Assembly: GCA_964345045.1 (NCBI GenBank) | Contig: CAYFPM010000001.1 | Location: forward strand, 467,784-531,783 | Reading direction: 5' to 3' | Source of the DNA: an uncultured Gammaproteobacteria bacterium | GTDB lineage: Bacteria; Patescibacteriota; Patescibacteriia; Magasanikbacterales; UBA922 | Length of the DNA stretch: 64,000 nucleotides | Shown: one piece after another, positions 13,600-63,217 of the stretch | Position numbering within the stretch: the first letter of the stretch is position 1 | Layout: the number at the start of each line of letters is the position of its first letter | The notes under the pieces: generated by a model | The model's input: the letters and a program-made list of their open reading frames with translations, nothing else | What the model was told of the DNA's origin: nothing | Databases searched by the model: none | Program-made: the position numbers and the translations under genes

Positions 13600-15207
13600 C
13601 TACTTTACGCCATGCATGCCGCGGTTCAAAAGTGGAACCAGCAGAAGCAAGAGAAAAGCAGCCGCCAAAGCAACGTATCCCAACGGTCCAAAGACCGATG
13701 AGAAGTTCGCCAGGCTATCGAACGAAGACAGCAATTCTGGTGAGTAATTTTGATTTTCACTCAAAATTCCCGCCATTTTTGCTGCCTCCCCTGCTACCAG
13801 ATTGGTTTCTCCAGACCCGGCGGTAAGCTTGGCAATCACTCCGCCAGCATGGTGCGCCATAGCCACCGACAAGAACCAAGCTCCCATGACAGTTCCGCCC
13901 ATCTCCTTGGGGGTGAGCTTGGTAACGAGCGACAGACCAATTGGCGAAAGGCAAAGTTCTCCGGTGGTGTGCAACAGATACCCTACGAGCAAGAAGATCA
14001 TGGGAATGACTGCCGCTTGTTTCACAACCGTGTCCGTTCCCTCGGTCACACTGATATCGGCAACCGAAACAAACCGAACTGACCATGCCAAAACCAGGAA
14101 ACCCAGCCCAAGCTGAGCCAGCCCCAACACAAACTTGGTGGGGGCGGATGGTGGCCAGCGGCTCTTGGCCAACCACTTCCACAGTTTGTCGAAAGGAGTT
14201 GCCAGAAGCAGAATCAGTGCGGGGTTCACAGATTGGAACCATGCTGTGGGGACTTCGAATCCGGCGATCGTTCTGTTCACGTTGGAATTGGTGAACAAAT
14301 TGATCGAAGATCCAGCCTGCTCGAAAAAGGCAAAAAAGATCATGGTGAAGACGAAGAGCGTCAAGACCACGAAGAGTCTATCCCTCACGATTTTCTCACT
14401 ACGAAGGGCTTTCACGAAGATGTAGAGCAACACCAGAATGCAGAAGGGAGTGAGGATATTTCCCATCAGCTCGTAATTCTTCATGAGCCAGGCGAAAAGA
14501 ACCACGCTCAAGAAAGACAGGATGTAGATGGAGTTTTCTGTGCTCACCCCGGGCAGAAGGTTCTTTTCGAGTTTCTGCCTATCGGGCGGATCCCCATTCG
14601 GACCAAGTTTCCCCTGCCCTAGGCCAAAGGTGATCAACCCGATTAGCATACCAACTCCGGCGATTCCAAATCCGTAGGACCAGCCAAATTTGGCTCCGAC
14701 CCAGCCACACAAGAGACCCGAGATTACTGCTCCCAGGTTGATCCCCATGTAGAAGATGGTGAACCCACCATCCCTTCGAGCATCGTTCTCTCGGTAGAGG
14801 CCGCCAACCATATTTGAAATGTTCGGCTTGAACATGCCATTGCCAACGATCAAGAAGGCCAAGGCAATGTAGAGGAAGGTTTCGGTTTCGATGGCCATCA
14901 CGAAGTGACCAATAGCCATGAGAATCGCCCCGAGCAGGACAGTCTTCTTGAAGCCAAGGTATAGATCCGCGATCCGGCCTCCGATGAAGGGCGTGGCGTA
15001 CACCAGAGCTCCGTAGGCGGCGTAAATACCGTAGCTCTTGGCCTTGGCCGCCTCTGTACCCATCTCGTAGAAGAGCGTGCTGGTGAGATAGAGTACGAGC
15101 AAAGCTCTCATGCCGTAGAAGCTAAAGCGCTCCCACATTTCGGTCATGAAGAGCATGAAGAGCTCCGGTGGGTGCTTTTCTTTGGTTGTGATTTCTTCAG
15201 TCGTCAA
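13600..15207 (-). CDS. proton-dependent oligopeptide transporter (POT/PTR2 family, DtpT-like)
   Basis: 535 aa; signature EMWERFSFYGMRALLVLYL (ExxERFxYYG), 12-14 TM helices. The whole gene is about 50-55% GC in a roughly 33% GC background, which is why both strands show many overlapping spurious ORFs. Confidence 0.85.
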   Translation of the reverse strand: MTTEEITTKEKHPPELFMLFMTEMWERFSFYGMRALLVLYLTSTLFYEMGTEAAKAKSYGIYAAYGALVYATPFIGGRIADLYLGFKKTVLLGAILMAIGHFVMAIETETFLYIALAFLIVGNGMFKPNISNMVGGLYRENDARRDGGFTIFYMGINLGAVISGLLCGWVGAKFGWSYGFGIAGVGMLIGLITFGLGQGKLGPNGDPPDRQKLEKNLLPGVSTENSIYILSFLSVVLFAWLMKNYELMGNILTPFCILVLLYIFVKALRSEKIVRDRLFVVLTLFVFTMIFFAFFEQAGSSINLFTNSNVNRTIAGFEVPTAWFQSVNPALILLLATPFDKLWKWLAKSRWPPSAPTKFVLGLAQLGLGFLVLAWSVRFVSVADISVTEGTDTVVKQAAVIPMIFLLVGYLLHTTGELCLSPIGLSLVTKLTPKEMGGTVMGAWFLSVAMAHHAGGVIAKLTAGSGETNLVAGEAAKMAGILSENQNYSPELLSSFDSLANFSSVFGPLGYVALAAAFLLLLLVPLLNRGMHGVK

Positions 15208-27430: not shown

Positions 27431-27712
27431 ATAACATATATGCTAAACAAAGTTATCAAAAATTTAAAAAAGAATAATTCGAAAATTCCTAATTTAGGAT
27501 CTTCGTCTTACAACCAAACTTCTTCTAGCAAGAAAAGTCATAATTCTGGCTTTCATACCAAAGGTAGTAGTGAGGCAGGTGCCAAAAGGCAAAGAAGCAT
27601 GGGAAACCGAAATACAAAACCACCCAGATAAAACAGTCCACAAGAGGCTGTTTTTTGATTTGACTAAATTTAAAATAAATGAAAAAATTTAGTTATGGTG
27701 GTATACGCAGTG

Positions 27713-27898
27713 ATGGAGATAACAGCCAAGATTTACCCAAAGGGTACTCGCAGGCTTTTTCGCTGTCCAAACTGTGGAAATGGAGCACACTGCAAATATA
27801 AAAGAGGAAAGAGTCGGAGGAATAGTAGACTTCACTTTTGGAAATGTCCTGGATGCAAGGCTATATTCACAACACCCAAGCGTATGGATACTCCATAG
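27713..27898 (+). CDS. small zinc-ribbon protein (hypothetical)
   Basis: 61-67 aa with two C-x2-C pairs (CPNCGNGAHC ... CPGCKAIF) and a basic composition. It lies on the + strand between flanking terminators, which favours this frame over the overlapping ORFs. Confidence 0.3.
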   Translation: MEITAKIYPKGTRRLFRCPNCGNGAHCKYKRGKSRRNSRLHFWKCPGCKAIFTTPKRMDTP

Positions 27899-28013: not shown

Positions 28014-28463
28014 CTAATTCCATCCAAAATAACTTAAAGGCTCCCCCTTTTGCCACTCTTTAAACATTTGTTGATAATAATCTATCAAATTATTTGGGAG
28101 AAATTCTAGGCTGTGCCATGACAGTTCCTCACATTTGTTAGGCTCTGTATTAATAATATCTCCTCTCCATTTTTTACATAAGAAGAAATAATCCACTCTT
28201 TCATGATCTCCACAATAACGATGCATTGTATGAACTAATTCCAAATTTTTTTGATCAATGTTTATTCCCACTTCTTCCTGGGCTTCACGAACCATAGCCC
28301 TATGGAGAGTTTCCCCGCCATCTACATGACCTGCAGGAAGACCATATTCTCCATCACAGTAACCTGTATTTTGCCTTAATAATAAAAGAATCTTTCCGTC
28401 ATCTTGCTGAAGTATTAAATATACAGATAAAATTGCTTTAAATTTTTCTTTCCAATTCCCCAT
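28014..28463 (-). CDS. NUDIX hydrolase
   Basis: 149 aa; Nudix box GLPAGHVDGGETLHRAMVREAQEEVGI (G-x5-E-x7-REUxEExGU). Confidence 0.8.
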   Translation of the reverse strand: MGNWKEKFKAILSVYLILQQDDGKILLLLRQNTGYCDGEYGLPAGHVDGGETLHRAMVREAQEEVGINIDQKNLELVHTMHRYCGDHERVDYFFLCKKWRGDIINTEPNKCEELSWHSLEFLPNNLIDYYQQMFKEWQKGEPLSYFGWN

Positions 28464-28540
28464 AATTTTATTTTTATAAATAAAGCCAATAATCGGAATC
28501 GAACTGGTAACCTACGGTTTAGCTGCCCGCAATTTGTTTG

Positions 28541-28614
28541 AGCCATGAGCGAGATTTGAACTCGCGACCTACGCGTTACGAGTGCGTTGCTCTACCTGCT
28601 TGAGCTATCATGGC
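28541..28614 (-). tRNA. tRNA-Thr(CGU)
   Basis: Minus-strand cloverleaf GCCATGA-TA-GCTC-AAGCAGGTA-GAGC-A-ACGCA-CTCGTAA-CGCGT-AGGTC-GCGAG-TTCAAAT-CTCGC-TCATGGC-T. Anticodon CGT; a 31:39 A·C mismatch, as seen in some Thr tRNAs. Confidence 0.75.
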
Positions 28615-28620
28615 AAATAA

Positions 28621-28650
28621 AAAAGCAGTAAAATCAAATTCACTGCTTTT
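28621..28650. terminator. terminator hairpin between the YceI-like gene and tRNA-Thr
   Basis: AGCAGT-(12 nt)-ACTGCT flanked by an A-run (left) and a T-run (right). Confidence 0.5.
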
Positions 28651-28659
28651 TTTGTCTAA

Positions 28660-29430
28660 TTATTTCGTCAAAAATACATTAAATCTAACTTCCATTTCAT
28701 TGTCTACAGTATATACATTGGCCAATTTAGGAGGCTGTACATTAAAATCAGACATCTTGATATTGGCAGTACCATCGGCAGACATAGCCTCTCCACTACT
28801 AACTCTTACAGAAAAAGGAACACTCTTGGTAACACCATTGATGGTAAGATTCAAATTAACATTTTTTCTGCTACTTCCGCTAAGATCCAAATCCAAGTCA
28901 TTTCCAGAAACCAAAATTTTCTCCCCCAACAACCCTTTTACTATACCGTCTCTACTACCCGATCCACTAGCAAAAGTTACCTCTATCTCAGCCTTTACTT
29001 CTACTTTTTTATTTTCTTTTACTACCACCTTACCGGTTATATCATTGGTCGTACCAATTACTTCTTCGGTTGGTCTAGAAAAAAACTTTTTTTGTACTAC
29101 ATAACTAGCTTTGGAATTACTAGCAATTTTGTAAGAAACAGCTTCTTCTGTTGTGGCTTGAGTATTTTCATTAACTTCGGGAGCAGTTTGTGCATTATTT
29201 GCATTGGTATTTGTAGCTGGAACAGTTTCTTCTTTTACCTCGCCAGAATTCGCCGCAGGACGAGCGTCGGCGGGTTTGTTTTCTTCTTCTACAACTGGGG
29301 TAGTACTTTCTTTTGTTTCTATTTTGGATTCTAGATTAGAATCTGATACTTCCTCTGTAGAGGTCAAAAAGTAATAAGCACCAATAACTAAAATTAATAG
29401 TCCCACTATTATAGCCAAACCTTTTTTCAT
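28660..29430 (-). CDS. YceI-like periplasmic/secreted protein with membrane anchor and low-complexity linker
   Basis: 256 aa; signal/anchor MKKGLAIIVGLLILVIGAYYFL, a T/E/N-rich linker, and a C-terminal roughly 170-aa YceI-like domain (YKIASNSKASYVVQKKFF...TGKVVV...FASGSGSRDGIVKG). Confidence 0.65.
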   Translation of the reverse strand: MKKGLAIIVGLLILVIGAYYFLTSTEEVSDSNLESKIETKESTTPVVEEENKPADARPAANSGEVKEETVPATNTNANNAQTAPEVNENTQATTEEAVSYKIASNSKASYVVQKKFFSRPTEEVIGTTNDITGKVVVKENKKVEVKAEIEVTFASGSGSRDGIVKGLLGEKILVSGNDLDLDLSGSSRKNVNLNLTINGVTKSVPFSVRVSSGEAMSADGTANIKMSDFNVQPPKLANVYTVDNEMEVRFNVFLTK

Positions 29431-29515
29431 ATTTTGCTATTTATTATATAAAAATCCCACAGTGTTGCGGGATTTTATTTTATGATTTTATAGACTAGTT
29501 GTCAACTTGTGTATT

Positions 29516-30577
29516 TTATTCTGTATCCTCTTCTTCATGAGCCTCACTCCCCTCTTTCATATCTACCAATGGCTCCAAACCTTCAAAAGGATTGTGAACT
29601 GGCAAAAGAATTTCAATTTTGGCAGACCGAACTTGGTCATCCATAAATCTCACAAAATCTCGAACTTGTCTTTTTTCGTCTACTTTTACAATATGAAAAC
29701 CAAATTGGGTTTCTACCAAACCATCATAAAGTTCCCCTCTTTCCAAACCAAATACAGCTTTTTCAAACTCTGGGACCATTACGCCCTGTCCAAACCAACC
29801 CAAATCTCCACCAAGATCTTTGGTAGAATCACTACCATACTGTCCAGCCAATTCAGCAAAACCCTCTCCATTTTTTATTCTTTGCAAAACTTCTTCAGCC
29901 TGGTTTTTGGTTTCTTGTTTTTTTTCTTCGTCTTTAAAAAGAATATGTCTGGCACGCACTTGTTCTCCAGCGTTATACTCACTATAGTTTTCATCGTCTG
30001 CCAATGAAAATGCTTCTTGAAAACTTTGTTCTAAAGCAAATGGCACAATTATTTTTTCTATATATTTATCAAACTCCCAACCGTACTGATCCATCAAATC
30101 AGCGGCTGCTGCTTCTTGATTTTCATAAGGTGCCAGTAGTTCTTGTTTTAAATTTTCAATGTTTTCTTCTGTGGCCTCTACTCCAAAATCATCTGCCAAA
30201 TCTTTTACCAAAGTATTGATAAGCAATCGACTCAAGACTTGATCAGAGATTTGTTCTTCGGAAAATTCCGGAAATCCGGCTGGTTGTTTTTCGTAAAAAG
30301 CTTTGAGAGTTTTTAATTCATCGGCATAATCTGCATACAAAACTTTGTTGCCATTTATCTTGGCTACGGGTGTATCAAAAACTCTGGATACACTTACTGC
30401 AAAATTGTCTGTAGAAGCTTGTTTAATCTGATTATTTGCCCAAAATACAGCGGCTACGGCTAATAATACAACTATGGCTAAAATACCTCCAAAAAAGGGC
30501 TTAAGGCCATTTTTGGGCTGTGAACTCATCTCAAGCTTCCTTTCTTGGTCTTTTGGGGTTTTGTCTTTATTTTCCAT
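29516..30577 (-). CDS. PpiC-type (parvulin) peptidyl-prolyl isomerase, PrsA/SurA-like, membrane anchored
   Basis: 353 aa; N-terminal TM; parvulin domain [11 protein letters not shown]...[23 protein letters not shown]...FGFHIVKV. Confidence 0.8.
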
Positions 30578-30581
30578 ATCT

Positions 30582-30995
30582 TTAGTTAATAATTTTATCT
30601 TTATTGATAAAGTAATATAGCCATTTTATAGGATTGGATAATTCTTGTCTATTGTTAGTATCTTCTATGTTATTTATATTTTTACTAGCATGTCCGGCAT
30701 TCAATACCAAAACTTTTTCTCCAGGTTTTTTTAAATTAAGCTCTGTCCTGGCTTTTTCTTCTACAAAGCTATCACTAAGCACATAATCTAACAGCTCCAT
30801 TGATTCTATTTTTTTTCTTTCCAAATTTTTTATTTCGTTTTCTAATTCTGCTATTTCTTGATTTATCTTGTAGCCACTGTAGTAAGATCTTAAAAAACCA
30901 AATATAACTAAAATTGTAATAGGAATAGCAAAAATCAAAAACAGACGTGATTCAAAAAAACGTCTTAGAGAACTGTTTTGTCTGGTATTTTCCAT
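30582..30995 (-). CDS. FtsL/FtsB(DivIC)-type septum formation initiator
   Basis: 137 aa; single N-terminal TM, coiled coil, conserved [16 protein letters not shown]-terminal motif; immediately upstream of a Mur ligase gene, as in dcw clusters. Confidence 0.6.
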
Positions 30996-31016
30996 GTCGG
31001 TATTATACCATCAAAA

Positions 31017-32366
31017 TTATTTTTTATCTCCTTTTTTTTGTAGAGCTTGTCTAACTTTTTTTCTGTCGTCCCAATCTATCATTTTTCCACCAGCCACACA
31101 CATTTTTTGTTCACTACCTTTGCCAGTTACCAAAACCAGGTCTCCTGCTTGTGCCATGTCCACGGCTTTTTGGATAGCTTCTCCCCTATCCAAAATTTTA
31201 TAATAATTTTTTTCTAAGTTTTTGCCATAATCTTCCAAACCTTTGGCCACATCGTTTATGATCTCCATAGGATCATCATCGTAAGGATCTTCGTCTGTTA
31301 CAATCGCAATATCTGCTTTTTCGGCTATAATTTTGGCTAGTGTAAAGCGTCTCTCTTTGTCTCTTCCTCCACCAGTAGAGCCAAAAACATGAATAACTCG
31401 TTTGGGTTCTAATAATTCTACAACTTTATAAAGTTCTTCCATAGCCACAGGTTCAAAAGCATAGTCCACTATTATTTTAAAATCAAAATTTTCGGCCTCT
31501 TTTATAAATTCAATTCTACCTGGAACAGATTTGAGATCATTGACAGCTTTTTGGATATTTCTTTCTTCTAGTTTGAGTGTTTTTGCCACAGCTACTGCAA
31601 CGGCTATATTCATAGCATTATAAACTCCATAAAGAGAAGGATGAAAACGATGTTCTTCTATTGTAAAACTTAAACCTTCTTTATCAACTTCTAAATTTTT
31701 TATTTTTATATCGGCTTTTTTACTACCAAAAGTTAGCTTTTGAGAAAAATTATATTTTAAAAATTCCGAAGTGTAATCCAAATCTCCGTTTACCAAAGCT
31801 GTTTTGGGGATCCTACCTGTTTTTTGGGTTTGATTGGTTTGTAAATTTGGTAAGTCTTGAATTTGTTTTACTTTACAATTTGCTACATATTCAAAAATAC
31901 CGAGTTTGGCAGCTTTGTAATTTTCAAAGCTACCATGAGAATCTATGTGTTCCGGATACAAATTGGTTAAAATCATTTGATCATAATTTATAAATCTATG
32001 ACGATGTTGCAAATATCCTTCTGAAGTGGTCTCTACAATCGCAATATCACATTTGGCCTCTACCATTTTTCGTAGGTACTTTTGTATTTCCATCTTGCCT
32101 AGCATGGTCATTTTTTTGTCATTTAACCTGCACTCACCTGCCACACAAAATTCTATGGTAGATAGCACCCCAACTTTAAAACCCATATTTTCCAATATTT
32201 GTTTTAAAAAATAGCACGTACTGGATTTGCCACTGGTCCCGGTTACTCCTATCACTAGTATTTCTTCCGAAGGATGTTTGTATTTAAAGGCTCCATACCA
32301 AGCAAAAAAAAGATGCCTTAAATTTAAGAGCAATTTGGGTATAATTTTTTTAATTATAGTTTTCAT
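31017..32366 (-). CDS. murE: Mur ligase, most similar to MurE (UDP-MurNAc-L-Ala-D-Glu:diamino acid ligase) with a short N-terminal domain
   Basis: 449 aa; ATP site GVTGTSGKSST; TNLYPEHIDSHGSFENYKAAKLGIF (Mur ligase central motif); C-terminal GGRDKERR...VTDEDPYDDDPMEIINDV...LVLVTGKGSEQ resembles the MurE C-terminal domain. Confidence 0.55.
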   Translation of the reverse strand: MKTIIKKIIPKLLLNLRHLFFAWYGAFKYKHPSEEILVIGVTGTSGKSSTCYFLKQILENMGFKVGVLSTIEFCVAGECRLNDKKMTMLGKMEIQKYLRKMVEAKCDIAIVETTSEGYLQHRHRFINYDQMILTNLYPEHIDSHGSFENYKAAKLGIFEYVANCKVKQIQDLPNLQTNQTQKTGRIPKTALVNGDLDYTSEFLKYNFSQKLTFGSKKADIKIKNLEVDKEGLSFTIEEHRFHPSLYGVYNAMNIAVAVAVAKTLKLEERNIQKAVNDLKSVPGRIEFIKEAENFDFKIIVDYAFEPVAMEELYKVVELLEPKRVIHVFGSTGGGRDKERRFTLAKIIAEKADIAIVTDEDPYDDDPMEIINDVAKGLEDYGKNLEKNYYKILDRGEAIQKAVDMAQAGDLVLVTGKGSEQKMCVAGGKMIDWDDRKKVRQALQKKGDKK

Positions 32367-32443
32367 ATTTTACTAGAGTTTAGCTTATTTATCTTCTAAA
32401 ATCAAGATAATTGACTTAAGCAATTTTTTGTTGTAATTTCATT

Positions 32444-32884
32444 TTGGAGGTTCTGTTGAGCAATTTTTGGACATGGGTAATAATCAGACCGTGTCCTATT
32501 TGCAAGACACGACCTGGTTACAATAGAGCGGCCTCTCGCTATAGAAAATCCAATAGAAGGGAGATTATCTACGGATACACTGAATGCACTCTATGTGCAG
32601 GATCCTGGTATATTAGAATTACCAGATGCAGTACCTGCAAGACAAAAGGCAACAGACGATGTACTGAATGCTTTGGGGAATTGTGGGTTTACGAACCCAA
32701 TATCATTTGCCCAAACTGTTATGGATGGGGCAAAAAGGGCATGTTTGATTGCCTAAGATGCCTTGGTGAAGGTACAATACCTAGACTTTGCGAGTACTGC
32801 TGTGGCAGGAAAACTCTAGGTAAAGGCAGCAGCACTAGACCCTGCAACGGATGCAATGCCGATGGCAAGGGCAGACGCTACTAA
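32444..32884 (+). CDS. Cys-rich small protein with eight C-x2-C motifs (DnaJ-zinc-finger-like C-x2-C-x-G-x-G repeats)
   Basis: 146 aa, 17 Cys: CPIC, CTLC, CSTC, CTEC, CPNCYGWG, CLRCLGEG, CEYCCG, CNGCNADG. The local GC is about 45%, against about 30% in flanking DNA. A clean terminator follows at 32913-32942. Confidence 0.4.
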   Translation: MEVLLSNFWTWVIIRPCPICKTRPGYNRAASRYRKSNRREIIYGYTECTLCAGSWYIRITRCSTCKTKGNRRCTECFGELWVYEPNIICPNCYGWGKKGMFDCLRCLGEGTIPRLCEYCCGRKTLGKGSSTRPCNGCNADGKGRRY

Positions 32885-32912
32885 AGTAACCAGGAAATAA
32901 CTTCATAATTAA

Positions 32913-32942
32913 AATCAACTTACAAAATAAGTTGATTTTTTA
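32913..32942 (+). terminator. rho-independent terminator
   Basis: AATCAACTT-ACAAAAT-AAGTTGATT followed by a T7 run. Confidence 0.7.
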
Positions 32943-33020
32943 TTAAATATATAATCTTTTTTGTAATATTAAAATTGACAATTATTAATTATCTTGTTAT
33001 TTATTCTTTAGGGGAAAAAT

Positions 33021-33293
33021 ATGTTAAGGAGAAGCGCATTTGTATTGTTGTTTGTACTATGGTTAAGGAGTATTGACCAGATAAAATACCAGGAAGAGAC
33101 AAAACCAATCTTTGCCTTACAAGGAGTAAGGGAAGAAACCATATCTACATATACTTTGGTGGGGAGGACAGTACCAAAAATCCATTGTATACTTTGTCTC
33201 GATACGGGACTACGAGAATATCACACCGACCATTACCAAAGATATTTGGCTCCCTGCAAAATGTGCCAAGCATGGAAAAAGCTAAGAGGGTAA
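33021..33293 (+). CDS. small secreted Cys-containing protein (hypothetical)
   Basis: 90 aa; signal-like N-terminus MLRRSAFVLLFVLWL; two C-x2-C pairs (CILC, CKMC); followed by a terminator at 33345-33376. Confidence 0.3.
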   Translation: MLRRSAFVLLFVLWLRSIDQIKYQEETKPIFALQGVREETISTYTLVGRTVPKIHCILCLDTGLREYHTDHYQRYLAPCKMCQAWKKLRG

Positions 33294-33344
33294 ATTTAAG
33301 AACCGCGGCTATAGAGGCCCTGGCCAGCGGATCAAATCAAAACC

Positions 33345-33376
33345 AAAATCCCAAGTTATTACTTGGGATTTTTTTA
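33345..33376. terminator. bidirectional rho-independent terminator
   Basis: AATCCCAAGT-TATT-ACTTGGGATT followed by a T7 run; A-rich on the left side. Confidence 0.7.
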
Positions 33377-33391
33377 TTGTAAAAAATAATC

Positions 33392-33970
33392 TTATCTTTG
33401 CAAGCTTATATCGTAAACCACTTTTTCAATTTTACTATTGGCTTGCTTGGCCTGATCAAATTTGTTTCGCAAATAACTAGTCAAATCAAATTCTATCAAC
33501 TCTCCTATTATTTCATTAGAAGCTTCGGCACATTTTTTTACCATTGTCTCATCTTTGTTGGTAGCCGCTTTTATAGCATAGCGGTATAGTTCCCCAGGCA
33601 AATCACAAAGCCCCGCAAGGAACACTCCTTCCTCTATATTTAAGTTAGCTACTTTGCTTACTTTTTTATTATCAATAAAATTCATAAAAAGCTGCGCTTC
33701 TACAAATTCTTCTTGGGCAGCTTTGAGAGATCCTTCTTGCAGCATATTGCCATCTTTTTTGTAGGCCGTGTGCAGTGATTTTAAGATTTGTAAACTTTGT
33801 TTTAATTTTTCACGAGCTTCTTTGGTATTCCCTCTGTGCAAATCAAAGATAACTCTTTTTGACAAATGGAGTGAATCGCCGCTTCTTTTTATGATATCTC
33901 GTCTTTTTTCAGCTCTTTTGTGCAAAAAAGTTTTCAATGAATTTATGTATTTTTTGTCTACAAATTTCAT
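33392..33970 (-). CDS. hypothetical all-alpha protein
   Basis: 192 aa, charged and helical; no motif I can assign. Confidence 0.35.
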   Translation of the reverse strand: MKFVDKKYINSLKTFLHKRAEKRRDIIKRSGDSLHLSKRVIFDLHRGNTKEAREKLKQSLQILKSLHTAYKKDGNMLQEGSLKAAQEEFVEAQLFMNFIDNKKVSKVANLNIEEGVFLAGLCDLPGELYRYAIKAATNKDETMVKKCAEASNEIIGELIEFDLTSYLRNKFDQAKQANSKIEKVVYDISLQR

Positions 33971-33971
33971 A

Positions 33972-36662
33972 TTAATTAGTTAATTTAGTTAGTTTAGTTC
34001 GACTTATAAATAAAAATTTAATTAATTCTATAATAAACAAATTCATAAGTCCAAATCCAAGTATGAGTAACCAATAAAATGGTTCTAACGGAACTGTGCG
34101 AAGGATAGTTTGAAATGGTGGCCAATATATAGCCAAAATCAACATTATCCAACCAAACAAAAGTGCTGTGTTTAGATATTTATTACTAAAAGGATTGAGC
34201 TGCCAAAAGTAATGTCGCATACTTCTAACTGAATAAATATAAACTTGAGCGGCGACACCTAATCCCAAAAACATCAAAGTCCTGGTAAAATGAATGTCCC
34301 CTGTTTTTTTCCAAAAATATACAAACAAACTAAACAGAACTAGATTCGAAACTACACTAATAGTAGTTACCATATATTTCATTTCTTTATCTAATATTTT
34401 TTCATTACTTTTTCTTGGGGGCATAAACATATTCTCCTTGTCTCCCTTGTCAAAAGCCAAGGCAATATTTGGGAAAGAATCTTGGATTACATTGATCCAA
34501 AGAATTTGTGCTGGTAAAACTGCCAAGGGGAAACCAGCAATTAAACTCCCTGATATCAAAATCACTTCGGAAAAACTACTGGCCAACAAATAAAGAACTA
34601 CTTTTTTTATGTTTTGATATATAGTTCTCCCCTCTTCTACGGCGGCCACAATCGTTTCTACACTATCGTTCAAGAGTACCAAATCAGATGTTTCTTTGGC
34701 CACATCGGTACCAGAACCCAGAGCTACTCCAATATCAGCCCCTTTTAGTGCTGGAGCATCATTAACTCCATCTCCGGTCATAGCAACCACGTCGCCATTC
34801 TTTTGAAAAGCTCTAACTATTTTTATTTTGTGCTCCGGATTGACTCTGGCAAAAACAGTTACATTTTTTATAAGATCCGCCAAATCTTCTTCCGATACCT
34901 TATCTAATTGTTGTCCTTCCACAATATTTTTATCAGCAGAAGGCAAACCAATTTGCTTGGCAATAGATCCAGCAGTGTGCGCATGGTCCCCAGTAATCAT
35001 CACTATATGAATTCCAGCTTTTCTGGCCACCTCTAAGGTTTCGTAAACTTTTGGTCTAAGTGGATCAGACAATCCGGTTAACCCTACAAATACCAATTCT
35101 TTTACATCTGATTTATTTAATTTATTTTTATTTTCATCAAAATTTTTAAATCCTACACCAATTACTCTCAATCCTCCTCCGGTCATTTCTTCAATTTTGT
35201 TTAGGTAACTAATCTGTTTTTCTTTGGTCATCTTTCGTACTTTTTTTCCATCAAAATAATGGGTAGCATTTTTAAGGATTACTTCTGGGGCTCCTTTGAT
35301 ATACATTTTTTTATCATCATCTTCTTTATTTAAGGTAGCCATAAATTTGGTACTACTCGAAAAAGGGATTTCATCCAATCTTTGATATGTGTTATCAAAT
35401 TTTACTTTGTCCAAACCAGCCAAAACTGCGGCTTGAAGCAAAGCTATATCGGTAGTGTCTCCCAAAAAGCCAAATCTGTTTTTGGCTTCTTCATTAATTT
35501 GTAAAATAGCATTGTTACAAAGTAAACCTATTTTCAAAGCAAAAAATTCTAAATTATCTCTAGTTTTATTGGTATATTGTAATTTTTTTATATCGGCAAA
35601 ATTAATCTCTCCAGCTTCGGTATAGATCTTTGTTAATTTCATTTTGCCTTCTGTCAGCGTCCCTGTTTTGTCTGTACATATTACACTTACAGAACCCAAC
35701 GTTTCGGCAGCTACCAATTTTCTAACTAAAGATTTTCTCTTTAAAATATGTTGCATCCCAATGGCCAAAATAATAGTCAAAGAAATTACTAAACCTTCGG
35801 GGATAGCGGCTACGGCTACGGCTACAGAAGTTTTAAAAACTTCCAAAAAAGTATAATGTTCTTCTCTTCTAGCCAAACCCAAAAAGAATATAAAAGTTGC
35901 CAAAATCACAATTATAACAGATAAGATTTTGCCCATCTGAGAAAGTTGCTTTTGCAAAGGAGTTTGTTCATCTGTTGTTTCTTTTACTAATTCGGCAATT
36001 TTACCAATTTCGGTACTTTTACCTGTGGCAGTAACCAAAACTTTGGCTTCTCCATCTACTGCCGCAGTCCCACGAAACACCATGTTTACTCTGTCCGCCA
36101 ATCTTACTTCCGTACCCAAGACTTTTTTATTTTTGTGTACCGGTTCTGATTCCCCTGTCAAAGCTGATTCATCTATTTTCAAATCTTTTTCTTCTATTAT
36201 TCTCCCATCTGCTTGAATCTTGTCTCCGGCCGACACAAGTAAGATATCTCCAGGCACAATTTCGTTACTAGATATTTGGATCTTTTCACCATCTCTTATT
36301 ACCAAGGCTTTGTACTCTACCAGGGACTGTAGTCGCGACAAAGCTTTATTTGCTTTGTCTTCTTGAAAAAAACCAATCATTATATTTATAATAGCTGTCC
36401 CCAAGATAATAGCCATATCCAAAGTCTCTCCAAGTAAACCACTTACCAAACCAGCTACAATCAAAATTAGAATAAGTGGACTTTTCCATTGATCCAAAAA
36501 AGTATTTAATCTATTAAAACCGGCATCAGATTTTGACAAGATATTCGAACCATATTTGCGCAATCTTAGCTTTATTTCTGATTCTGACAAACCCTTTTCT
36601 CCTGTACCGAACTCCCTAAATAAATCTTCTATTTTGTAGCTATATAGCATAGATATTGACAA
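33972..36662 (-). CDS. P-type cation-transporting ATPase (P2-type, Ca2+/Mg2+-ATPase-like)
   Basis: 896 aa; phosphorylation site ICTDKTGTLTEG, MITGDHAHTAGSIAKQIG, hinge VAMTGDGVNDAPALKGADIGVALG, 10 predicted TM helices. Confidence 0.9.
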   Translation of the reverse strand: MSISMLYSYKIEDLFREFGTGEKGLSESEIKLRLRKYGSNILSKSDAGFNRLNTFLDQWKSPLILILIVAGLVSGLLGETLDMAIILGTAIINIMIGFFQEDKANKALSRLQSLVEYKALVIRDGEKIQISSNEIVPGDILLVSAGDKIQADGRIIEEKDLKIDESALTGESEPVHKNKKVLGTEVRLADRVNMVFRGTAAVDGEAKVLVTATGKSTEIGKIAELVKETTDEQTPLQKQLSQMGKILSVIIVILATFIFFLGLARREEHYTFLEVFKTSVAVAVAAIPEGLVISLTIILAIGMQHILKRKSLVRKLVAAETLGSVSVICTDKTGTLTEGKMKLTKIYTEAGEINFADIKKLQYTNKTRDNLEFFALKIGLLCNNAILQINEEAKNRFGFLGDTTDIALLQAAVLAGLDKVKFDNTYQRLDEIPFSSSTKFMATLNKEDDDKKMYIKGAPEVILKNATHYFDGKKVRKMTKEKQISYLNKIEEMTGGGLRVIGVGFKNFDENKNKLNKSDVKELVFVGLTGLSDPLRPKVYETLEVARKAGIHIVMITGDHAHTAGSIAKQIGLPSADKNIVEGQQLDKVSEEDLADLIKNVTVFARVNPEHKIKIVRAFQKNGDVVAMTGDGVNDAPALKGADIGVALGSGTDVAKETSDLVLLNDSVETIVAAVEEGRTIYQNIKKVVLYLLASSFSEVILISGSLIAGFPLAVLPAQILWINVIQDSFPNIALAFDKGDKENMFMPPRKSNEKILDKEMKYMVTTISVVSNLVLFSLFVYFWKKTGDIHFTRTLMFLGLGVAAQVYIYSVRSMRHYFWQLNPFSNKYLNTALLFGWIMLILAIYWPPFQTILRTVPLEPFYWLLILGFGLMNLFIIELIKFLFISRTKLTKLTN

Positions 36663-36953: not shown

Positions 36954-37172
36954 ATGAACACTCTCAAACCCGGTATTTATCGGCATTACAAAGGTAAAGA
37001 ATATCAAGTTATAGCCGTAGTCAAACACAGCGAAACTCTAGAAGATTTGGTTTTGTACAAAGCTCTCTACGACAATCCAAAATCAAAACTGTGGGTACGC
37101 CCGCTCGAGATGTTTTTGGAAAATGTAATAATAGAAGGAGTTCCAAAACCAAGATTTGAATTTGTAAAATAA
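36954..37172 (+). CDS. DUF1653-family small protein
   Basis: 72 aa; YRHYKGKEYQVIAVVKHSETLEDLVLYKALYDN...WVRPLEMF matches the DUF1653 consensus pattern; terminator at 37172-37199. Confidence 0.55.
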   Translation: MNTLKPGIYRHYKGKEYQVIAVVKHSETLEDLVLYKALYDNPKSKLWVRPLEMFLENVIIEGVPKPRFEFVK

Positions 37173-45231: not shown

Positions 45232-45552
45232 AATTTTTTTTCTGCAAGAAATAATATCTTTCTTCTATAATTTTCAAATTATACTGCTTGGTTTTTAATA
45301 AATTTTTCTGCATATTTTTATACCCCTAATATTACTACAAAAGCGTTGATAATTAAAATAAACTTATTCAAAAAATCAAAGCCTTTGTTTTGCTCTAAAA
45401 TCCACAGATATAGGACAAAATCTTGACAATTACCCTAAATTGTACTATATGCTCTTATCGTCGCAGACTATGTGAGAGCTATACCTAGCTTTGACATGGC
45501 CTGCGAGCCAAAAAACAGAGGCAAAAACGCCTCCAAGAAGGAGTCACAAAAA

Positions 45553-45921
45553 ATGAAGGTCCTAATAGTAGACGACAGCCGTGCCATGCGAGCGATTATC
45601 CAGAGAACGCTACGGCAGGCAGGGTTCAACATCCAGATCAAAGTCGTCGAGGCAACCAACGGCCGAGAAGGACTGGAGAAGGTCGCGAAGGAATCGCCTG
45701 ACCTAATTCTGTCCGACTGGAACATGCCGGAAATGAACGGCCTGGAGTTCCTCCAGGCGCTACGCCGTGATGGCAACGAAACCATCTTTGGCTTCGTCAC
45801 CTCGCTCGCCACGCCGGCGATGCAGAGGGAGGCGACCTCTTCGGGGGCTTCGTTCTACATCACCAAGCCGTTCCGTGAGCAGATCTTCAAATCTGTCTTG
45901 GAGCCGTACTTCAACGGCTAG
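45553..45921 (+). CDS. single-domain CheY-like response regulator (GC-rich orphan)
   Basis: ORF from 45472; likely start MKVLIVDDS, preceded by AAGGAG 11 nt upstream. Receiver residues DD (N-terminus), D in LILSDWNMP, T in FGFVTS, K in YITKPF. About 55% GC. Confidence 0.7.
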   Translation: MKVLIVDDSRAMRAIIQRTLRQAGFNIQIKVVEATNGREGLEKVAKESPDLILSDWNMPEMNGLEFLQALRRDGNETIFGFVTSLATPAMQREATSSGASFYITKPFREQIFKSVLEPYFNG

Positions 45922-50178: not shown

Positions 50179-50310
50179 CATACTCATTATGCTCATTTTA
50201 CCTAGAAAAATAAGATCTGACAAGGATTCCCTTCTATTTATCTAAAAACAAACTCGCTTTTGCAAGTCTGTTTATTTTTTTAACTACAATTTACATGATA
50301 AAATATTTCT

Positions 50311-50389
50311 GTCCGCGTAGCTCAGCCAGGTAGAGCGCTCAGTCTACTAAACGAAGCAGAGGTCGTCGGTTCAAATCCGATCGCGGACA
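50311..50389 (+). tRNA. tRNA-like gene with canonical acceptor, D and T arms but a non-canonical, 5-nt-expanded anticodon region (identity undetermined; possible pseudo-tRNA)
   Basis: GTCCGCG-TA-GCTC-AGCCAGGTA-GAGC ... GTCGG-TTCAAAT-CCGAT-CGCGGAC-A. The 27 nt between the D stem and T stem (GCTCAGTCTACTAAACGAAGCAGAGGTC) cannot be folded into a 5-bp anticodon stem with a 7-nt loop. GCTCAG occurs twice (50320-50325 and 50337-50342). Confidence 0.45.
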
Positions 50390-50401
50390 TCTCTCTAAAA
50401 A

Positions 50402-62001: not shown

Positions 62002-62100
62002 GTAATTTTATAAAAGTAAAGAAAAAAAGGCATCTTGACAAAGATGTCTTTTTGGTTTAATTTAATATACTGCTTTATAGCAGTAGGAGGAAACAAAAGC

Positions 62101-62625
62101 GTGAAAACGATCTTTCGAATTACATTGATGATGCTCTTGCTTCTGGCCGCATGCAAAGAGGACAACACTCGCTGCAGCGGAAGGTTCCAAAACAGTAACA
62201 GAACGAAGACGTTCAATACCAACGTTGATCGTTTCATGAAACTGGTACTACAGGAGAACCCGGAGAGACAAATCGCTGTAGGTTTGCACAATGAGAACAA
62301 ATCTATCGAACGATTTGCCCACGGCCGCCACTTCCCAGATGGCAATGGGTACACGATTTTTCCAGACGAGGAGCCCTGGACGCACCTCATGTTCCATGAG
62401 TGCATCGAGGGGAAATGGAAATATTTTGGCGAAGTAGAACTACCTCGCCAGCCAATAATTCCCGATTCTCCACCCAAAACCCTGAAATTCGACCGTATTT
62501 CTACAAGAAAGGCAGAAAAAGACGGCCTCATCAACTGGCTTGCTCGAAAGCCAAGCTACCTCAAAGAAAAACCTCTCCTAGGTGGACAGGTAACGAGGTA
62601 TGTCGTAAAAAAGCCCGACTACTAG
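62101..62625 (+). CDS. putative lipoprotein (GC-rich gene)
   Basis: Alternative GTG start gives VKTIFRITLMMLLLLAACKED with lipobox LLAAC. About 50% GC; terminator at 62716-62746. Confidence 0.4.
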   Translation: MKTIFRITLMMLLLLAACKEDNTRCSGRFQNSNRTKTFNTNVDRFMKLVLQENPERQIAVGLHNENKSIERFAHGRHFPDGNGYTIFPDEEPWTHLMFHECIEGKWKYFGEVELPRQPIIPDSPPKTLKFDRISTRKAEKDGLINWLARKPSYLKEKPLLGGQVTRYVVKKPDY

Positions 62626-62715
62626 GTTCACTAGCCTACTGGCTAGTAATATAAGTAACCACCCTGTCGGCTCCACTCCAAACAGCAGCAAAAAATGATG
62701 CTTTTTGAAATAAAC

Positions 62716-62746
62716 AAAACCCACTATTGCAATAGTGGGTTTTGTT
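62716..62746 (+). terminator. rho-independent terminator (20-bp perfect palindrome)
   Basis: AAAACCCACTATTGCAATAGTGGGTTTTGTT. Confidence 0.7.
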
Positions 62747-62917
62747 ATTGACAAATCTACAAAAACGTGGTATTCTTAGACGTTCTTGCCTACCAGGCAG
62801 AACCACTGCTGGGGAGCAGTGAGCAACGCAATCGGCGTAGCTAAAATCATGCAGGCGGCTTTTAAAATGCCCACCTGATATGTGCCCCACGCGCCCTCAA
62901 CCTCTAAGGAGGCTCGT

Positions 62918-63217
62918 ATGGCATACCCCGACAAGATCAAATATTCACGAGAGTTCAAGACAGCAGTGCAGTCACTCCGCCGATGTGACAACAAAGCAGA
63001 AATGCTGAGGCTGTTGAAAGAAGGCTCCCCCTATCTAGGAAGGCATCTATCTACGCTGGCACAGAATACTATTGAGCCAGCAAGAATCCTAGAACTGCTT
63101 GATTCTGACGATACAGAGACGCTTCGAGAAGAAGCTCAACTGATTGCAGACTACCAGGCAGCGTACTCCATGTGGAGCAAAATCATAGACGCCCACACTG
63201 GCAACTGCAAGGCCTAA
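62918..63217 (+). CDS. hypothetical protein (GC-rich gene)
   Basis: ORF from 62882; likely start MAYPDKIKY, preceded by a strong SD AAGGAGG 6 nt upstream; 99 aa. Confidence 0.4.
   Translation: MAYPDKIKYSREFKTAVQSLRRCDNKAEMLRLLKEGSPYLGRHLSTLAQNTIEPARILELLDSDDTETLREEAQLIADYQAAYSMWSKIIDAHTGNCKA

What the first reader, a model, noticed from the sequence alone, without database searches (positions are those of the whole stretch)
32440..33380. Module of two small Cys-rich secreted/zinc-finger-like proteins in a GC-shifted segment, each with its own terminator
The 146-aa ORF has 17 Cys arranged as eight C-x2-C pairs, several in the DnaJ-type C-x2-C-x-G-x-G arrangement. The following 90-aa ORF has a signal-peptide-like N-terminus and two C-x2-C pairs. 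Local GC is about 45% versus about 30% around. Both are followed by textbook terminators, suggesting they are real, independently expressed small genes. The function could be metal binding, an anti-sigma/zinc-ribbon regulator, or a secreted effector or RiPP-like precursor. Nothing similar is annotated in the window's core genes.
Basis: partly seen in the sequence, partly recalled or inferred. Interest (0 to 1): 0.55.

Follow-up and report, generated by a model that had tools for sequence, protein, structure and literature searches.

The report
Orphan zinc-knuckle gene insert in CPR
A 1-kb stretch of probably foreign DNA, found only in this one uncultured Patescibacteria population, splits a conserved gene pair and carries one credible small gene for a four-zinc DnaJ/anti-TRAP-type "zinc-knuckle" protein plus a second, doubtful small ORF; it is a modest curiosity and does not point to a new kind of system.

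Summary
ORF1 (32456/32444-32884, +) has 17 Cys in eight CxxC motifs. ORF2 (33021-33293, +) has a hydrophobic N-terminus and two CxxC. Each is followed by a stable hairpin and a T-run.

The two ORFs fill a 1,025-bp gap between a Mur ligase and a Translin-family gene. In related Magasanikbacteria-like genomes those two genes are adjacent on one strand, and no relative carries either ORF. The junction is hypervariable across the clade.

ORF1 is very probably a real protein gene:
- The CxxC pattern far exceeds shuffles.
- All 16 knuckle Cys align with four double-knuckle units of DnaJ/anti-TRAP-type arrays (hhalign 91%, E 1e-6; phmmer E 2.6e-8).
- It has GGAGG 5 nt before the TTG start.

It falls below the Pfam and NCBIfam cut-offs and has no J-domain, so it resembles the family but is not a certified member.

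ORF2 is unproven. Its length is what chance gives, it lacks codon periodicity and it has no homologue. Only its SD-like motif, start codon and terminator speak for it.

Both ORFs have non-host GC3 and codon usage, and both have SD-like motifs that host genes lack (1 of 30), which suggests horizontal acquisition.

The structured-RNA, RiPP, anti-sigma and metallothionein readings found no support. Function is inferred only: a zinc-scaffolded binding protein.

The parts
32367..33391 (.). Lineage-specific 1,025-bp segment between the Mur ligase (31017-32366, -) and the Translin-family gene (33392-33970, -)
   Evidence: In 15 related genomes Translin and the Mur ligase are neighbours on one strand. 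The gap is 60 bp or less in 6 of them and holds 235-761 bp of mutually unrelated sequence in 9. None has ORF1 or ORF2 by tblastn. No terminal repeats or target-site duplication were found.
32411..32439 (+). Possible promoter of ORF1 (TTGACT, 17 nt, TAATTT)
   Evidence: Read directly from the sequence. The -10 hexamer is weak and the consensus scan did not call it. Inference only.
32446..32450 (+). Shine-Dalgarno GGAGG, 5 nt before TTG 32456
   Evidence: Only 0.37% of all start codons in the window have GGAGG at -16..-4, and 1 of 30 host genes has any SD-like core.
32456..32884 (+). ORF1 coding sequence: 142 aa (146 aa if TTG 32444 is used), 17 Cys, eight CxxC knuckles forming four predicted Zn(Cys)4 units, pI 9.4
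   Evidence: See for the ORF, its distant relatives, the CxxC statistics, the PDB matches, the physicochemical properties, the profile comparison, the alignment and the fold search.
32911..32941 (+). Terminator T1 after ORF1: 12-bp perfect AT-rich stem, 5-nt loop, T-run
   Evidence: -10.7 kcal/mol, z = -5.05, 0 of 200 shuffles fold as well; inverted repeat I11.
32975..33003 (+). Possible promoter of ORF2 (TTGACA, 17 nt, TATTTA)
   Evidence: Read directly from the sequence. The -35 hexamer is perfect and the -10 is weak. The scan did not call it. Inference only.
33010..33015 (+). SD-like AGGGGA, 5 nt before ATG 33021
33021..33293 (+). ORF2: 90 aa, signal-peptide-like N-terminus, CxxC-x19-CxxC near the C-terminus; coding status uncertain
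   Evidence: The only database match is an identical copy of itself. There is no Pfam, NCBIfam, PHROG, PADLOC or PDB hit. It lacks the purine peak at codon position 1 that all 31 host genes show. Its length is within chance.
33345..33376 (.). Bidirectional terminator T2, shared by ORF2 (+) and probably by Translin (-)
   Evidence: 12-bp stem with 4 G-C pairs. -15.5 kcal/mol on the + strand and -17.2 on the - strand, with 0 of 200 shuffles as stable. It has the same form as host terminators at 37171 and 41210.

Best explanation
The 1,025-bp gap is a lineage-specific insertion, probably acquired horizontally, at a hypervariable junction between a Translin-family gene and a Mur ligase in a Magasanikbacteria-like (Patescibacteria/CPR) genome. 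It carries two small transcription units on the strand opposite to all their neighbours, an arrangement like phage 'morons'.

**ORF1** is a real gene for a 142-aa basic protein with no J-domain. It is built from four tandem anti-TRAP/DnaJ-type double-knuckle units: C13/16+C44/47, C58/61+C69/72, C85/88+C99/102 and C112/115+C130/133.

**Inferred mechanism for ORF1:** each unit chelates one Zn2+ through four Cys. The resulting rigid, positively charged scaffold binds a partner macromolecule. By analogy with anti-TRAP the partner is most likely a protein, so ORF1 would act as a small adaptor or inhibitor and not as an enzyme.

**ORF2** may encode a small exported or membrane-tethered protein with one CxxC...CxxC pair, but it may equally be a non-functional ORF.

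**Shown versus inferred:** the anatomy, the absence from relatives, the motif homology, the foreign-like composition and the SD motifs are shown. Zinc binding, expression, the partner and the function are inferred.
For: **Synteny and insertion**
- Translin and the Mur ligase are adjacent on the same strand in 15 relatives, with gaps of 60 bp or less in 6.
- Every gene from 28014 to 36662 is on the - strand except these two ORFs.

**ORF1 as a protein**
- It has 8 CxxC motifs, against a maximum of 3 in nucleotide shuffles.
- An exhaustive phmmer search of 1.84 billion proteins finds, besides itself, three HNH plus DnaJ_CXXCXGXG array proteins, with E from 2.6e-8 to 6e-4.
- hhalign to their array profile gives probability 91% and E 1e-6.
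- MAFFT places all 16 knuckle Cys in register with four double-knuckle units.
- The best PDB sequence hits are anti-TRAP 3LCZ (E 0.015) and the DnaJ Cys-rich domain 1EXK (E 0.09).
- The top Foldseek hits of the (weak) model are anti-TRAP and DnaJ zinc-finger structures.
- ORF1 shows strong codon-position periodicity and host-like sense-strand purine loading.

**Foreign origin**
- GC3 is 0.44 for ORF1 and 0.385 for ORF2, against 0.28 +/- 0.07 for host genes.
- Coding log-odds are -0.13 and 0.01, against 0.37 +/- 0.11 for host genes.
- Both ORFs have SD-like motifs 5 nt before the start codon, while 1 of 30 host genes has one. Only 6 of 173 ORFs of at least 60 aa have one, and these include the clearly foreign high-GC POT transporter.

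**Terminators and gene calls**
- Both terminators are more stable than all 200 shuffles.
- Both ORFs are called as genes in the NCBI, ENA and Logan assemblies.
Against: - There is no homologue with the same architecture anywhere, so no conservation, dN/dS or covariation test is possible.
- The four independent assemblies are 100% identical to the window, so no polymorphism data exist.
- ORF1 scores below every curated cut-off: Pfam PF00684 12.6 versus 32.7 bits, NCBIfam RtpA 15.5 versus 65. Part of the phmmer and hhalign signal may come from Cys/Gly composition.
- The AlphaFold models have low confidence (pLDDT 36 and 49), and the fold matches are not significant (best E 0.047).
- The promoters are weak and were not called by the scan.
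- ORF2 has no support from length, periodicity or homology.
- No mobile-element hallmarks flank the insert, and no related sequence was found in viral contigs or metagenomes.
- There are no expression data.
Confidence: 0.6

Rival explanations
1. The segment is inert foreign or junk DNA. ORF1 would be a decaying C-terminal remnant of a larger knuckle-array gene, such as an HNH plus zinc-knuckle defence-candidate protein, and ORF2 a chance ORF. Neither would be expressed or functional in this host.
For: - Both are orphans.
- Codon usage is unlike the host.
- ORF2's length is expected by chance and it lacks coding periodicity.
- ORF1's only relatives are long HNH-array proteins that match PADLOC PDC-M01B.
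- The same junction in relatives holds unrelated sequence that looks non-coding.
Against: - ORF1 is intact across all eight knuckles, with no broken CxxC.
- It has a well-placed GGAGG plus a start codon and its own terminator.
- No HNH-like sequence lies upstream; the stop-free stretch is only 154 codons.
- ORF1 lacks the roughly 20-residue spacers of the HNH arrays, so it is not a simple fragment of one.
Confidence: 0.22
2. The GC-rich ORF1 region is a structured non-coding RNA on either strand, and the Cys-rich frame is a by-product. This would parallel the GC-rich structured elements that occupy the same junction in relatives.
For: - The initial fold of 32440-32945 gave z = -5.1 (+) and -6.8 (-).
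- A 9-bp long-range inverted repeat, CCTGGTTAC / GTAACCAGG (32513 / 32886), spans the stop codon.
- Relatives L004 and L014 have a roughly 230-nt GC-rich element closed by a 12-16-bp helix at this site.
Against: - Restricted to the CDS, z is -2.2 and -3.3, within the range of host controls (-1.4 +/- 1.5, minimum -5.2). The early values were inflated by the terminator and by mixed composition.
- There is no Rfam hit at gathering threshold or at E up to 10.
- nhmmer finds no similarity to any relative's element.
- A 9-bp repeat in about 500 nt is expected roughly 0.5 times by chance (my estimate).
- Eight in-register CxxC motifs matching a protein profile are not explained by an RNA.
Confidence: 0.05
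3. ORF1 is a metal-buffering, metallothionein-like protein functionally tied to the nearby P-type ATPase.
For: ORF1 is 12% Cys, and a cation P-type ATPase lies 1.1 kb away (33972-36662).
Against: - The ATPase-Translin-Mur ligase synteny is ancestral and exists without ORF1 in all relatives.
- The ATPase has Cation_ATPase_N and Cation_ATPase_C domains and no listed heavy-metal-associated domain; I infer from that domain set that it is P2-type.
- The Cys are arranged as regular CxxCxG knuckles, typical of structural zinc sites, and not as the CxC/CC clusters of metallothioneins.
Confidence: 0.05
4. The pair is a RiPP-like or secreted Cys-rich peptide module, or a zinc-binding anti-sigma regulator.
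For: ORF2 has a signal-peptide-like N-terminus, and both products are Cys-rich.
Against: - No radical-SAM, YcaO, lanthipeptide or other maturase gene, transporter or sigma-factor gene lies within about 10 kb.
- ORF1 is too long for a precursor peptide and has no leader or signal sequence (maximum Kyte-Doolittle score over 19 residues is 0.67).
- ORF2 has H-C-x2-C, not the ZAS motif H-x3-C-x2-C, and its Cys lie C-terminal to the hydrophobic segment.
- There are no PADLOC or PHROG hits.
Confidence: 0.03

Closest known systems
Anti-TRAP (RtpA; Pfam PF15777, NCBIfam NF058604; PDB 2BX9, 3LCZ)
   Same: It is a small protein with no J-domain whose core is one CxxCxGxG...CxxCxGxG double knuckle binding one Zn through four Cys, and it works by binding another protein. 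ORF1 residues 83-108 (CPNCYGWGKKGMFDCLRCLGEG) align to it, and it is the top Foldseek hit (2.0 A over 30 residues).
   Different: Anti-TRAP is 53 aa with a single unit and assembles into trimers and dodecamers (PMC2896485). It belongs to the Bacillus trp regulon. ORF1 has four units and a 25-residue basic insert in the first. It scores 15.5 bits against a cut-off of 65. No TRAP partner is known or was tested here.
DnaJ central cysteine-rich domain (Pfam PF00684; PDB 1EXK)
   Same: It uses the same CxxCxGxG motif class with Zn(Cys)4 centres. ORF1 gives weak hits to PF00684 (E 0.17), to TIGR02349 at the DnaJ zinc-finger region (E 0.0017) and to 1EXK (E 0.09).
   Different: ORF1 has no J-domain, no G/F region and no C-terminal substrate-binding domains. 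It has eight motifs instead of four, and it is below the Pfam gathering score (12.6 versus 32.7 bits).
Plastid DnaJ-like zinc-finger proteins without a J-domain (BSD2, ORANGE, PSA2, ZnJ2, ZnJ6)
   Same: They are stand-alone DnaJ-type zinc-finger modules with CxxCxGxG or CxxCxxxG repeats that act as holdases, assembly factors or thiol-redox proteins (PMC5818400, PMC8999238, PMC4806229). ORF1 mixes both motif variants.
   Different: They are eukaryotic plastid proteins with four repeats plus targeting or membrane segments. No detectable sequence relationship was found beyond the motif.
HNH-nuclease proteins with C-terminal arrays of DnaJ-type double knuckles (P0002, P0003, P0005; PADLOC candidate PDC-M01B)
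   Same: These are the only significant sequence relatives of ORF1 (phmmer E 2.6e-8; hhalign 91%). They have the same tandem double-knuckle repeat, and all 16 Cys align.
   Different: They are 470-540 aa, with an N-terminal HNH domain and roughly 20-residue spacers between units. ORF1 is a compact array with no nuclease domain and does not itself hit PDC-M01B.
Phage 'morons' (autonomous promoter-gene-terminator units inserted between conserved genes; recalled from established phage genomics, not tested here)
   Same: The architecture matches: small orphan genes with atypical composition, each with its own start signals and terminator, wedged between two genes that are adjacent in relatives.
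   Different: The setting is a chromosomal cell-wall and cell-division gene cluster, not a prophage. No phage genes are nearby and no related viral contig was found.

Membership tests
DnaJ_CXXCXGXG zinc-finger domain (PF00684) | Score at or above the Pfam gathering threshold (32.7 bits) | tested here: not met
   12.6 bits, E 0.17.
DnaJ_CXXCXGXG zinc-finger domain (PF00684) | Repeated CxxCxGxG motifs spaced so that pairs can form Zn(Cys)4 centres | tested here: inconclusive
   ORF1 has eight CxxC at spacings of 31, 14, 11, 16, 14, 13 and 18 residues. Only 2 are perfect CxxCxGxG, 3 are CxxCxG and 3 are CxxCx3-4G. All 16 Cys align to four double-knuckle units of bona fide PF00684 arrays, with hhalign probability 91%.
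DnaJ/Hsp40 co-chaperone | An N-terminal J-domain with the HPD motif | tested here: not met
   No J-domain hit in Pfam or NCBIfam, and ORF1 contains no His at all.
DnaJ-like zinc-finger proteins (any) | Stoichiometric zinc binding by the Cys quartets | not testable with these tools
   This needs metal analysis of purified protein. The AlphaFold models are too poor to judge the geometry.
Anti-TRAP (RtpA) | NCBIfam NF058604 score at or above 65 bits; single-unit protein of about 53 aa | tested here: not met
   15.5 bits, E 0.014, covering only residues 89-112 of the 146-aa form. ORF1 is 142 aa with four units.
Anti-TRAP (RtpA) | Presence of the TRAP (MtrB) partner in the genome | not tested
   Only 64 kb of the genome is available, and no search for MtrB was made.
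Sec signal peptide (ORF2) | Positively charged n-region, 7-15-residue hydrophobic h-region, small residues at -3 and -1 of a cleavage site | tested here: inconclusive
   MLRR, then an 11-residue hydrophobic core, then LRS followed by I. The peak Kyte-Doolittle score is 2.7 over 11 residues and 1.14 over 19 residues, too short for a transmembrane helix. No SignalP-type predictor was available.
RiPP precursor | A modifying enzyme and/or export genes in the neighbourhood; a short precursor with a leader | tested here: not met
   The neighbours are cell-envelope and housekeeping genes. ORF1 is 142 aa.
Zinc-binding anti-sigma factor (ZAS) | An HxxxCxxC motif and an adjacent sigma-factor gene | tested here: not met
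   ORF2 has HCxxC, ORF1 has no His, and there is no sigma gene nearby.
Structured non-coding RNA | A match to a curated family, or folding stability beyond the genomic background, or covariation | tested here: not met
   No Rfam hit. The CDS fold z-scores of -2.2 and -3.3 lie within the control range. Covariation cannot be tested because no homologues exist.
Moron-like autonomous gene cassette | Its own promoter and terminator, inserted between genes that are adjacent in relatives, with atypical composition | tested here: inconclusive
   The insertion, the terminators and the atypical composition are met. The promoters are only weak matches found by eye. There is no phage context.

The most novel reading that the evidence does not exclude
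The Translin-Mur ligase junction of Magasanikbacteria-like genomes may be a dedicated cassette-exchange hotspot. It holds unrelated GC-rich structured elements in some lineages, small orphan genes here, and nothing in others. On this reading ORF1 would be the first stand-alone compact four-zinc knuckle array, used as a mobile-element-derived inhibitor, for example of a host or rival defence protein related to the HNH-knuckle (PDC-M01B-like) systems that are its only relatives.
Probability: 0.1. Interest if true: 0.6.

Novelty: new variant of a known kind. Interest (0 to 1): 0.3.

Why it matters
If ORF1 is expressed, it adds a compact eight-knuckle, four-zinc protein with no J-domain to the DnaJ/anti-TRAP zinc-finger class, from a phylum (CPR) whose small orphan proteins are almost entirely uncharacterised.

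The case also shows that even a reduced genome of roughly 0.6 Mb or more, judging from its 621-kb contig, takes up and keeps foreign mini-cassettes inside a conserved cell-wall gene cluster. In this genome, whose own genes largely lack Shine-Dalgarno motifs, SD motifs tended to mark the foreign-looking genes (four of the six SD-bearing ORFs are foreign-looking; one is a host pilin-like gene).

None of this overturns current understanding. The value is descriptive unless a function, for example as an inhibitor of a defence nuclease, is shown.

Tried and rejected
- **Rfam.** Gathering and permissive scans of the window and of four to nine related loci found nothing in any of the gaps. ARAGORN found no tmRNA there.
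- **RNA fold of ORF1.** The first fold z-scores of -5 to -7 looked like an RNA. They collapsed to background once the terminator and the AT-rich tail were removed and host controls were run (one search timed out).
- **Homologue searches.** The word-indexed search of 5.8 billion proteins for both ORFs, the exhaustive HMMER search for ORF1, viral contigs for both ORFs, metagenome contigs for ORF1 and tblastn against 80 syntenic loci found only identical self-copies plus three distant array proteins.
- **Other libraries.** PHROGs and PADLOC gave nothing. A PDB sequence search for ORF2 gave nothing.
- **Structure prediction.** AlphaFold2 on the single sequence gave pLDDT 36, and with a 4-row alignment pLDDT 49. 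Neither is usable as independent evidence. Foldseek hits match the theme but are not significant.
- **Polymorphism.** Four assemblies are 100% identical to the window, so no selection test is possible.
- **Mobile-element boundaries.** No terminal inverted repeats or target-site duplication were found.
- **ORF1/ORF2 paralogy.** None was found.
- **The relatives' GC-rich element.** Attempts to enlarge the L004/L014 element into a family by nhmmer and by a metagenome pattern scan recovered only L014's own population and one chance match.
- **The relatives' gap ORFs.** Pfam scans gave no convincing hits.
- **Literature.** A search for the source project PRJEB17505 found no paper.
Full report
**Observation.**
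- ORF1 spans 32444-32884 on the + strand. A GGAGG at 32446-32450 sits 5 nt before a second in-frame TTG at 32456, which is also the start of the database copy P0001, so the product is probably 142 aa.
- ORF1 has 17 Cys in eight CxxC motifs. Two are perfect CxxCxGxG, three are CxxCxG and three are looser.
- Dinucleotide shuffles of the gap never give more than 3 CxxC in one stop-free stretch. Shuffling ORF1's own residues gives a mean of 1.8 and a maximum of 7 in 20,000 trials. A stop-free stretch of this length occurs in 8 of 1000 shuffles.
- ORF2 (33021-33293, 90 aa) begins MLRRSAFVLLFVLWLRS and has CxxC-x19-CxxC near its end. Its length is what chance gives, since the longest stop-free stretch in shuffles averages 79 +/- 18 codons.
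- Both hairpins are real: -10.7 and -15.5 kcal/mol, with 0 of 200 shuffles as stable. T1 is AT-rich. T2 is bidirectional, resembles host terminators, and probably also terminates the Translin gene on the other strand.
- The GC shift is real for ORF1 (45%) and mild for ORF2 (40%), against 36% for the window.

**Context.** The window comes from a Patescibacteria (CPR) genome close to Candidatus Magasanikbacteria. The nearest species in the genome collection share about 55-63% identity in the adjacent Mur ligase.
- The ORFs fill a 1,025-bp gap between that Mur ligase (31017-32366, -) and a Translin-family gene (33392-33970, -; PF01997, E 6e-19).
- In 15 relatives the Translin gene lies directly upstream of the Mur ligase on the same strand. 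Six have a gap of 60 bp or less. Nine have 235-761 bp of sequence unrelated to the window and, apart from two close pairs, unrelated to each other.
- None encodes anything like ORF1 or ORF2.
- Every other gene from 28 to 36.6 kb of the window is on the minus strand.
- The simplest reading is a lineage-specific insertion at a hypervariable junction. No terminal repeats or target-site duplication mark its edges.

- The 506-nt stretch folded with z = -5.1 and -6.8 on the two strands.
- Relatives L004 and L014 carry a GC-rich element of about 230 nt closed by a 12-16-bp helix at the same site.
- With the terminator and the AT-rich tail removed, the ORF1 coding sequence gives z = -2.2 and -3.3, inside the spread of 24 host control segments (-1.4 +/- 1.5, minimum -5.2). 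ORF2 gives positive z.
- Rfam finds nothing at gathering threshold or at E up to 10.
- nhmmer finds no similarity between the window's segment and any relative's element.
- The RNA reading is therefore not supported. Covariation cannot be tested because there are no homologues.

**ORF1 as a protein.**
- The word-indexed search of 5.8 billion proteins finds only an identical copy.
- The exhaustive HMMER scan of 1.84 billion representatives adds three proteins of 470-540 aa, with E from 2.6e-8 to 6e-4. They combine an HNH nuclease domain with arrays of DnaJ_CXXCXGXG repeats, and the one I scanned (P0002) also matches the PADLOC defence candidate PDC-M01B.
- Against a profile of those arrays, ORF1 residues 39-111 score hhalign probability 91%, E 1e-6.
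- In a multiple alignment all 16 knuckle cysteines fall in register with four double-knuckle units: C13/16+C44/47, C58/61+C69/72, C85/88+C99/102 and C112/115+C130/133. ORF1 lacks the roughly 20-residue spacers of the arrays and has a basic 25-residue insert in its first unit.
- The best PDB sequence matches are anti-TRAP (3LCZ, E 0.015) and the DnaJ cysteine-rich domain (1EXK, E 0.09).
- The curated thresholds are not reached: PF00684 12.6 versus 32.7 bits, RtpA 15.5 versus 65. There is no J-domain.
- AlphaFold models are poor (pLDDT 36 and 49). Their best Foldseek matches are again anti-TRAP and DnaJ zinc fingers, but these are not significant.
- The protein is basic (pI 9.4; 26 K+R against 9 D+E) and has no hydrophobic segment.
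- ORF1 shows strong codon-position periodicity of an unusual kind driven by TGY and GGN codons. Its sense strand has the purine and G excess typical of host genes.

**ORF2.** Nothing supports it beyond its signals.
- It has an AGGGGA 5 nt before the ATG, a perfect TTGACA upstream, and terminator T2 downstream.
- It has no homologue other than itself and no hit in Pfam, NCBIfam, PHROGs, PADLOC or PDB sequences.
- It shows no relationship to ORF1 or to the knuckle arrays.
- It lacks the purine peak at codon position 1 that all 31 host genes show.
- Its hydrophobic core is about 11 residues. That suits a signal peptide but is too short for a membrane helix.
- I put its chance of being a real gene near one half.

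**Foreign origin.**
- Host genes have GC3 of 0.28 +/- 0.07 and coding log-odds of 0.37 +/- 0.11. ORF1 has 0.44 and -0.13, and ORF2 has 0.385 and 0.01.
- Host genes in this window almost never have a Shine-Dalgarno motif (1 of 30), and many have a TATAAT box right before the ATG. Both ORFs carry a well-placed SD-like motif.
- Only 0.37% of all start codons have GGAGG in place, and 2.1% have any of four 5-mers, so a joint chance occurrence is of the order of 1e-4 (my inference).
- Of the six ORFs of at least 60 aa with such a motif, one is the obviously foreign high-GC POT transporter. The high-GC ORF at 62882 has AAGGAGG before an internal ATG.
- This supports acquisition from an SD-using donor. 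The window shows that this genome does take up foreign genes.
- No donor was found: there are no related viral or metagenomic contigs.

**Mechanism (inferred).**
- ORF1 most likely folds around four Zn(Cys)4 centres, one per double knuckle as in anti-TRAP, giving a rigid, positively charged scaffold that binds another macromolecule.
- By analogy with anti-TRAP and the plastid DnaJ-like zinc-finger proteins (PMC2896485, PMC5818400, PMC8999238), I favour a protein-binding adaptor or inhibitor (about 35%). The alternatives are a holdase or thiol-redox role (about 20%) and nucleic-acid binding (about 20%).
- The cassette layout resembles phage morons: small orphan genes with their own start signals and terminators, wedged between genes that are adjacent in relatives.
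- RiPP, anti-sigma and metallothionein readings are rejected because no partner genes or motifs are present, and because the nearby P-type ATPase is part of the ancestral synteny.

**Verdict.** ORF1 is a divergent orphan variant of a known class, the DnaJ/anti-TRAP-type zinc-knuckle proteins without a J-domain. ORF2 is unproven. There are no expression, polymorphism or conservation data, so function remains inferred. Interest is modest.

Noticed in passing
window 33392-33970 (-): This is a Translin-family protein (PF01997, E 6e-19) in a bacterial genome. It is conserved directly upstream of the Mur ligase in 15 Magasanikbacteria-like genomes. From memory, Translin is mainly eukaryotic and archaeal, so its role here is unknown.
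   Followed up: partly
L004 5642-5879; L014 5650-5868 (also L086); gaps of L005, L007, L016, L017: The Translin-Mur ligase junction is hypervariable in relatives. L004 and L014 carry a GC-rich element (core about 0.6) of roughly 230 nt closed by a 12-16-bp helix with one A-U to G-C compensatory change. Their flanking genes are about 80% identical, but the core is too diverged for blastn. There is no Rfam or tmRNA hit. Other relatives have unrelated GC-rich structured inserts of 350-490 bp. This could be an unknown RNA or a small mobile element; it is unresolved.
   Followed up: partly
window, 30 confident gene starts: Host genes almost entirely lack Shine-Dalgarno motifs (1 of 30), and several have a TATAAT box ending 5-10 nt before the ATG, for example 30995, 37254 and 55419. 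This suggests leaderless or SD-independent initiation. SD-like motifs occur at the foreign-looking genes and at a pilin-like gene.
   Followed up: partly
window 13600-15207 (-): A POT/PTR2 peptide transporter (PF00854, E 1.5e-71) has GC 0.52 and GC3 0.65 in a 36% GC genome, and an AAGGGGA before its start. It is a clear horizontal acquisition.
   Followed up: partly
window 45472-45921 (+): A stand-alone response-regulator receiver domain (PF00072, E 9e-26) has GC 0.55 and GC3 0.73. It is another foreign-looking gene.
   Followed up: partly
window 62035-63217: A GC-rich island (0.46-0.51) holds ORFs of 196 and about 99-111 aa with no Pfam hit. The second has AAGGAGG 6 nt before an internal ATG at 62918.
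   Followed up: partly
window 27695-27898 (+): A 67-aa ORF with two CxxC pairs gives weak zinc-ribbon hits (E about 1e-4, below the cut-offs). It is another small Cys-containing ORF in an intergenic stretch.
   Followed up: partly
window 50310-50391 (+): ARAGORN calls this tRNA as Ser with anticodon ACT. Rfam scores it 49 bits, the weakest of the five tRNAs. Its anticodon arm looks irregular in the sequence and in the MFE fold, so the identity call may be wrong or the tRNA may be unusual.
   Followed up: partly
L012 5566-5913; L015 5345-5695: Two relatives share a 115-116-aa ORF (85% DNA identity) in the same junction, on the same strand as the flanking genes. It gives a weak hit to EF-Tu domain 2, below the cut-off.
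   Followed up: partly
L017 10949-11226 (+): A group I intron (Rfam RF00028, 83.7 bits) lies about 320 nt downstream of a tRNA-Gln in a related Magasanikbacteria genome.
   Followed up: no
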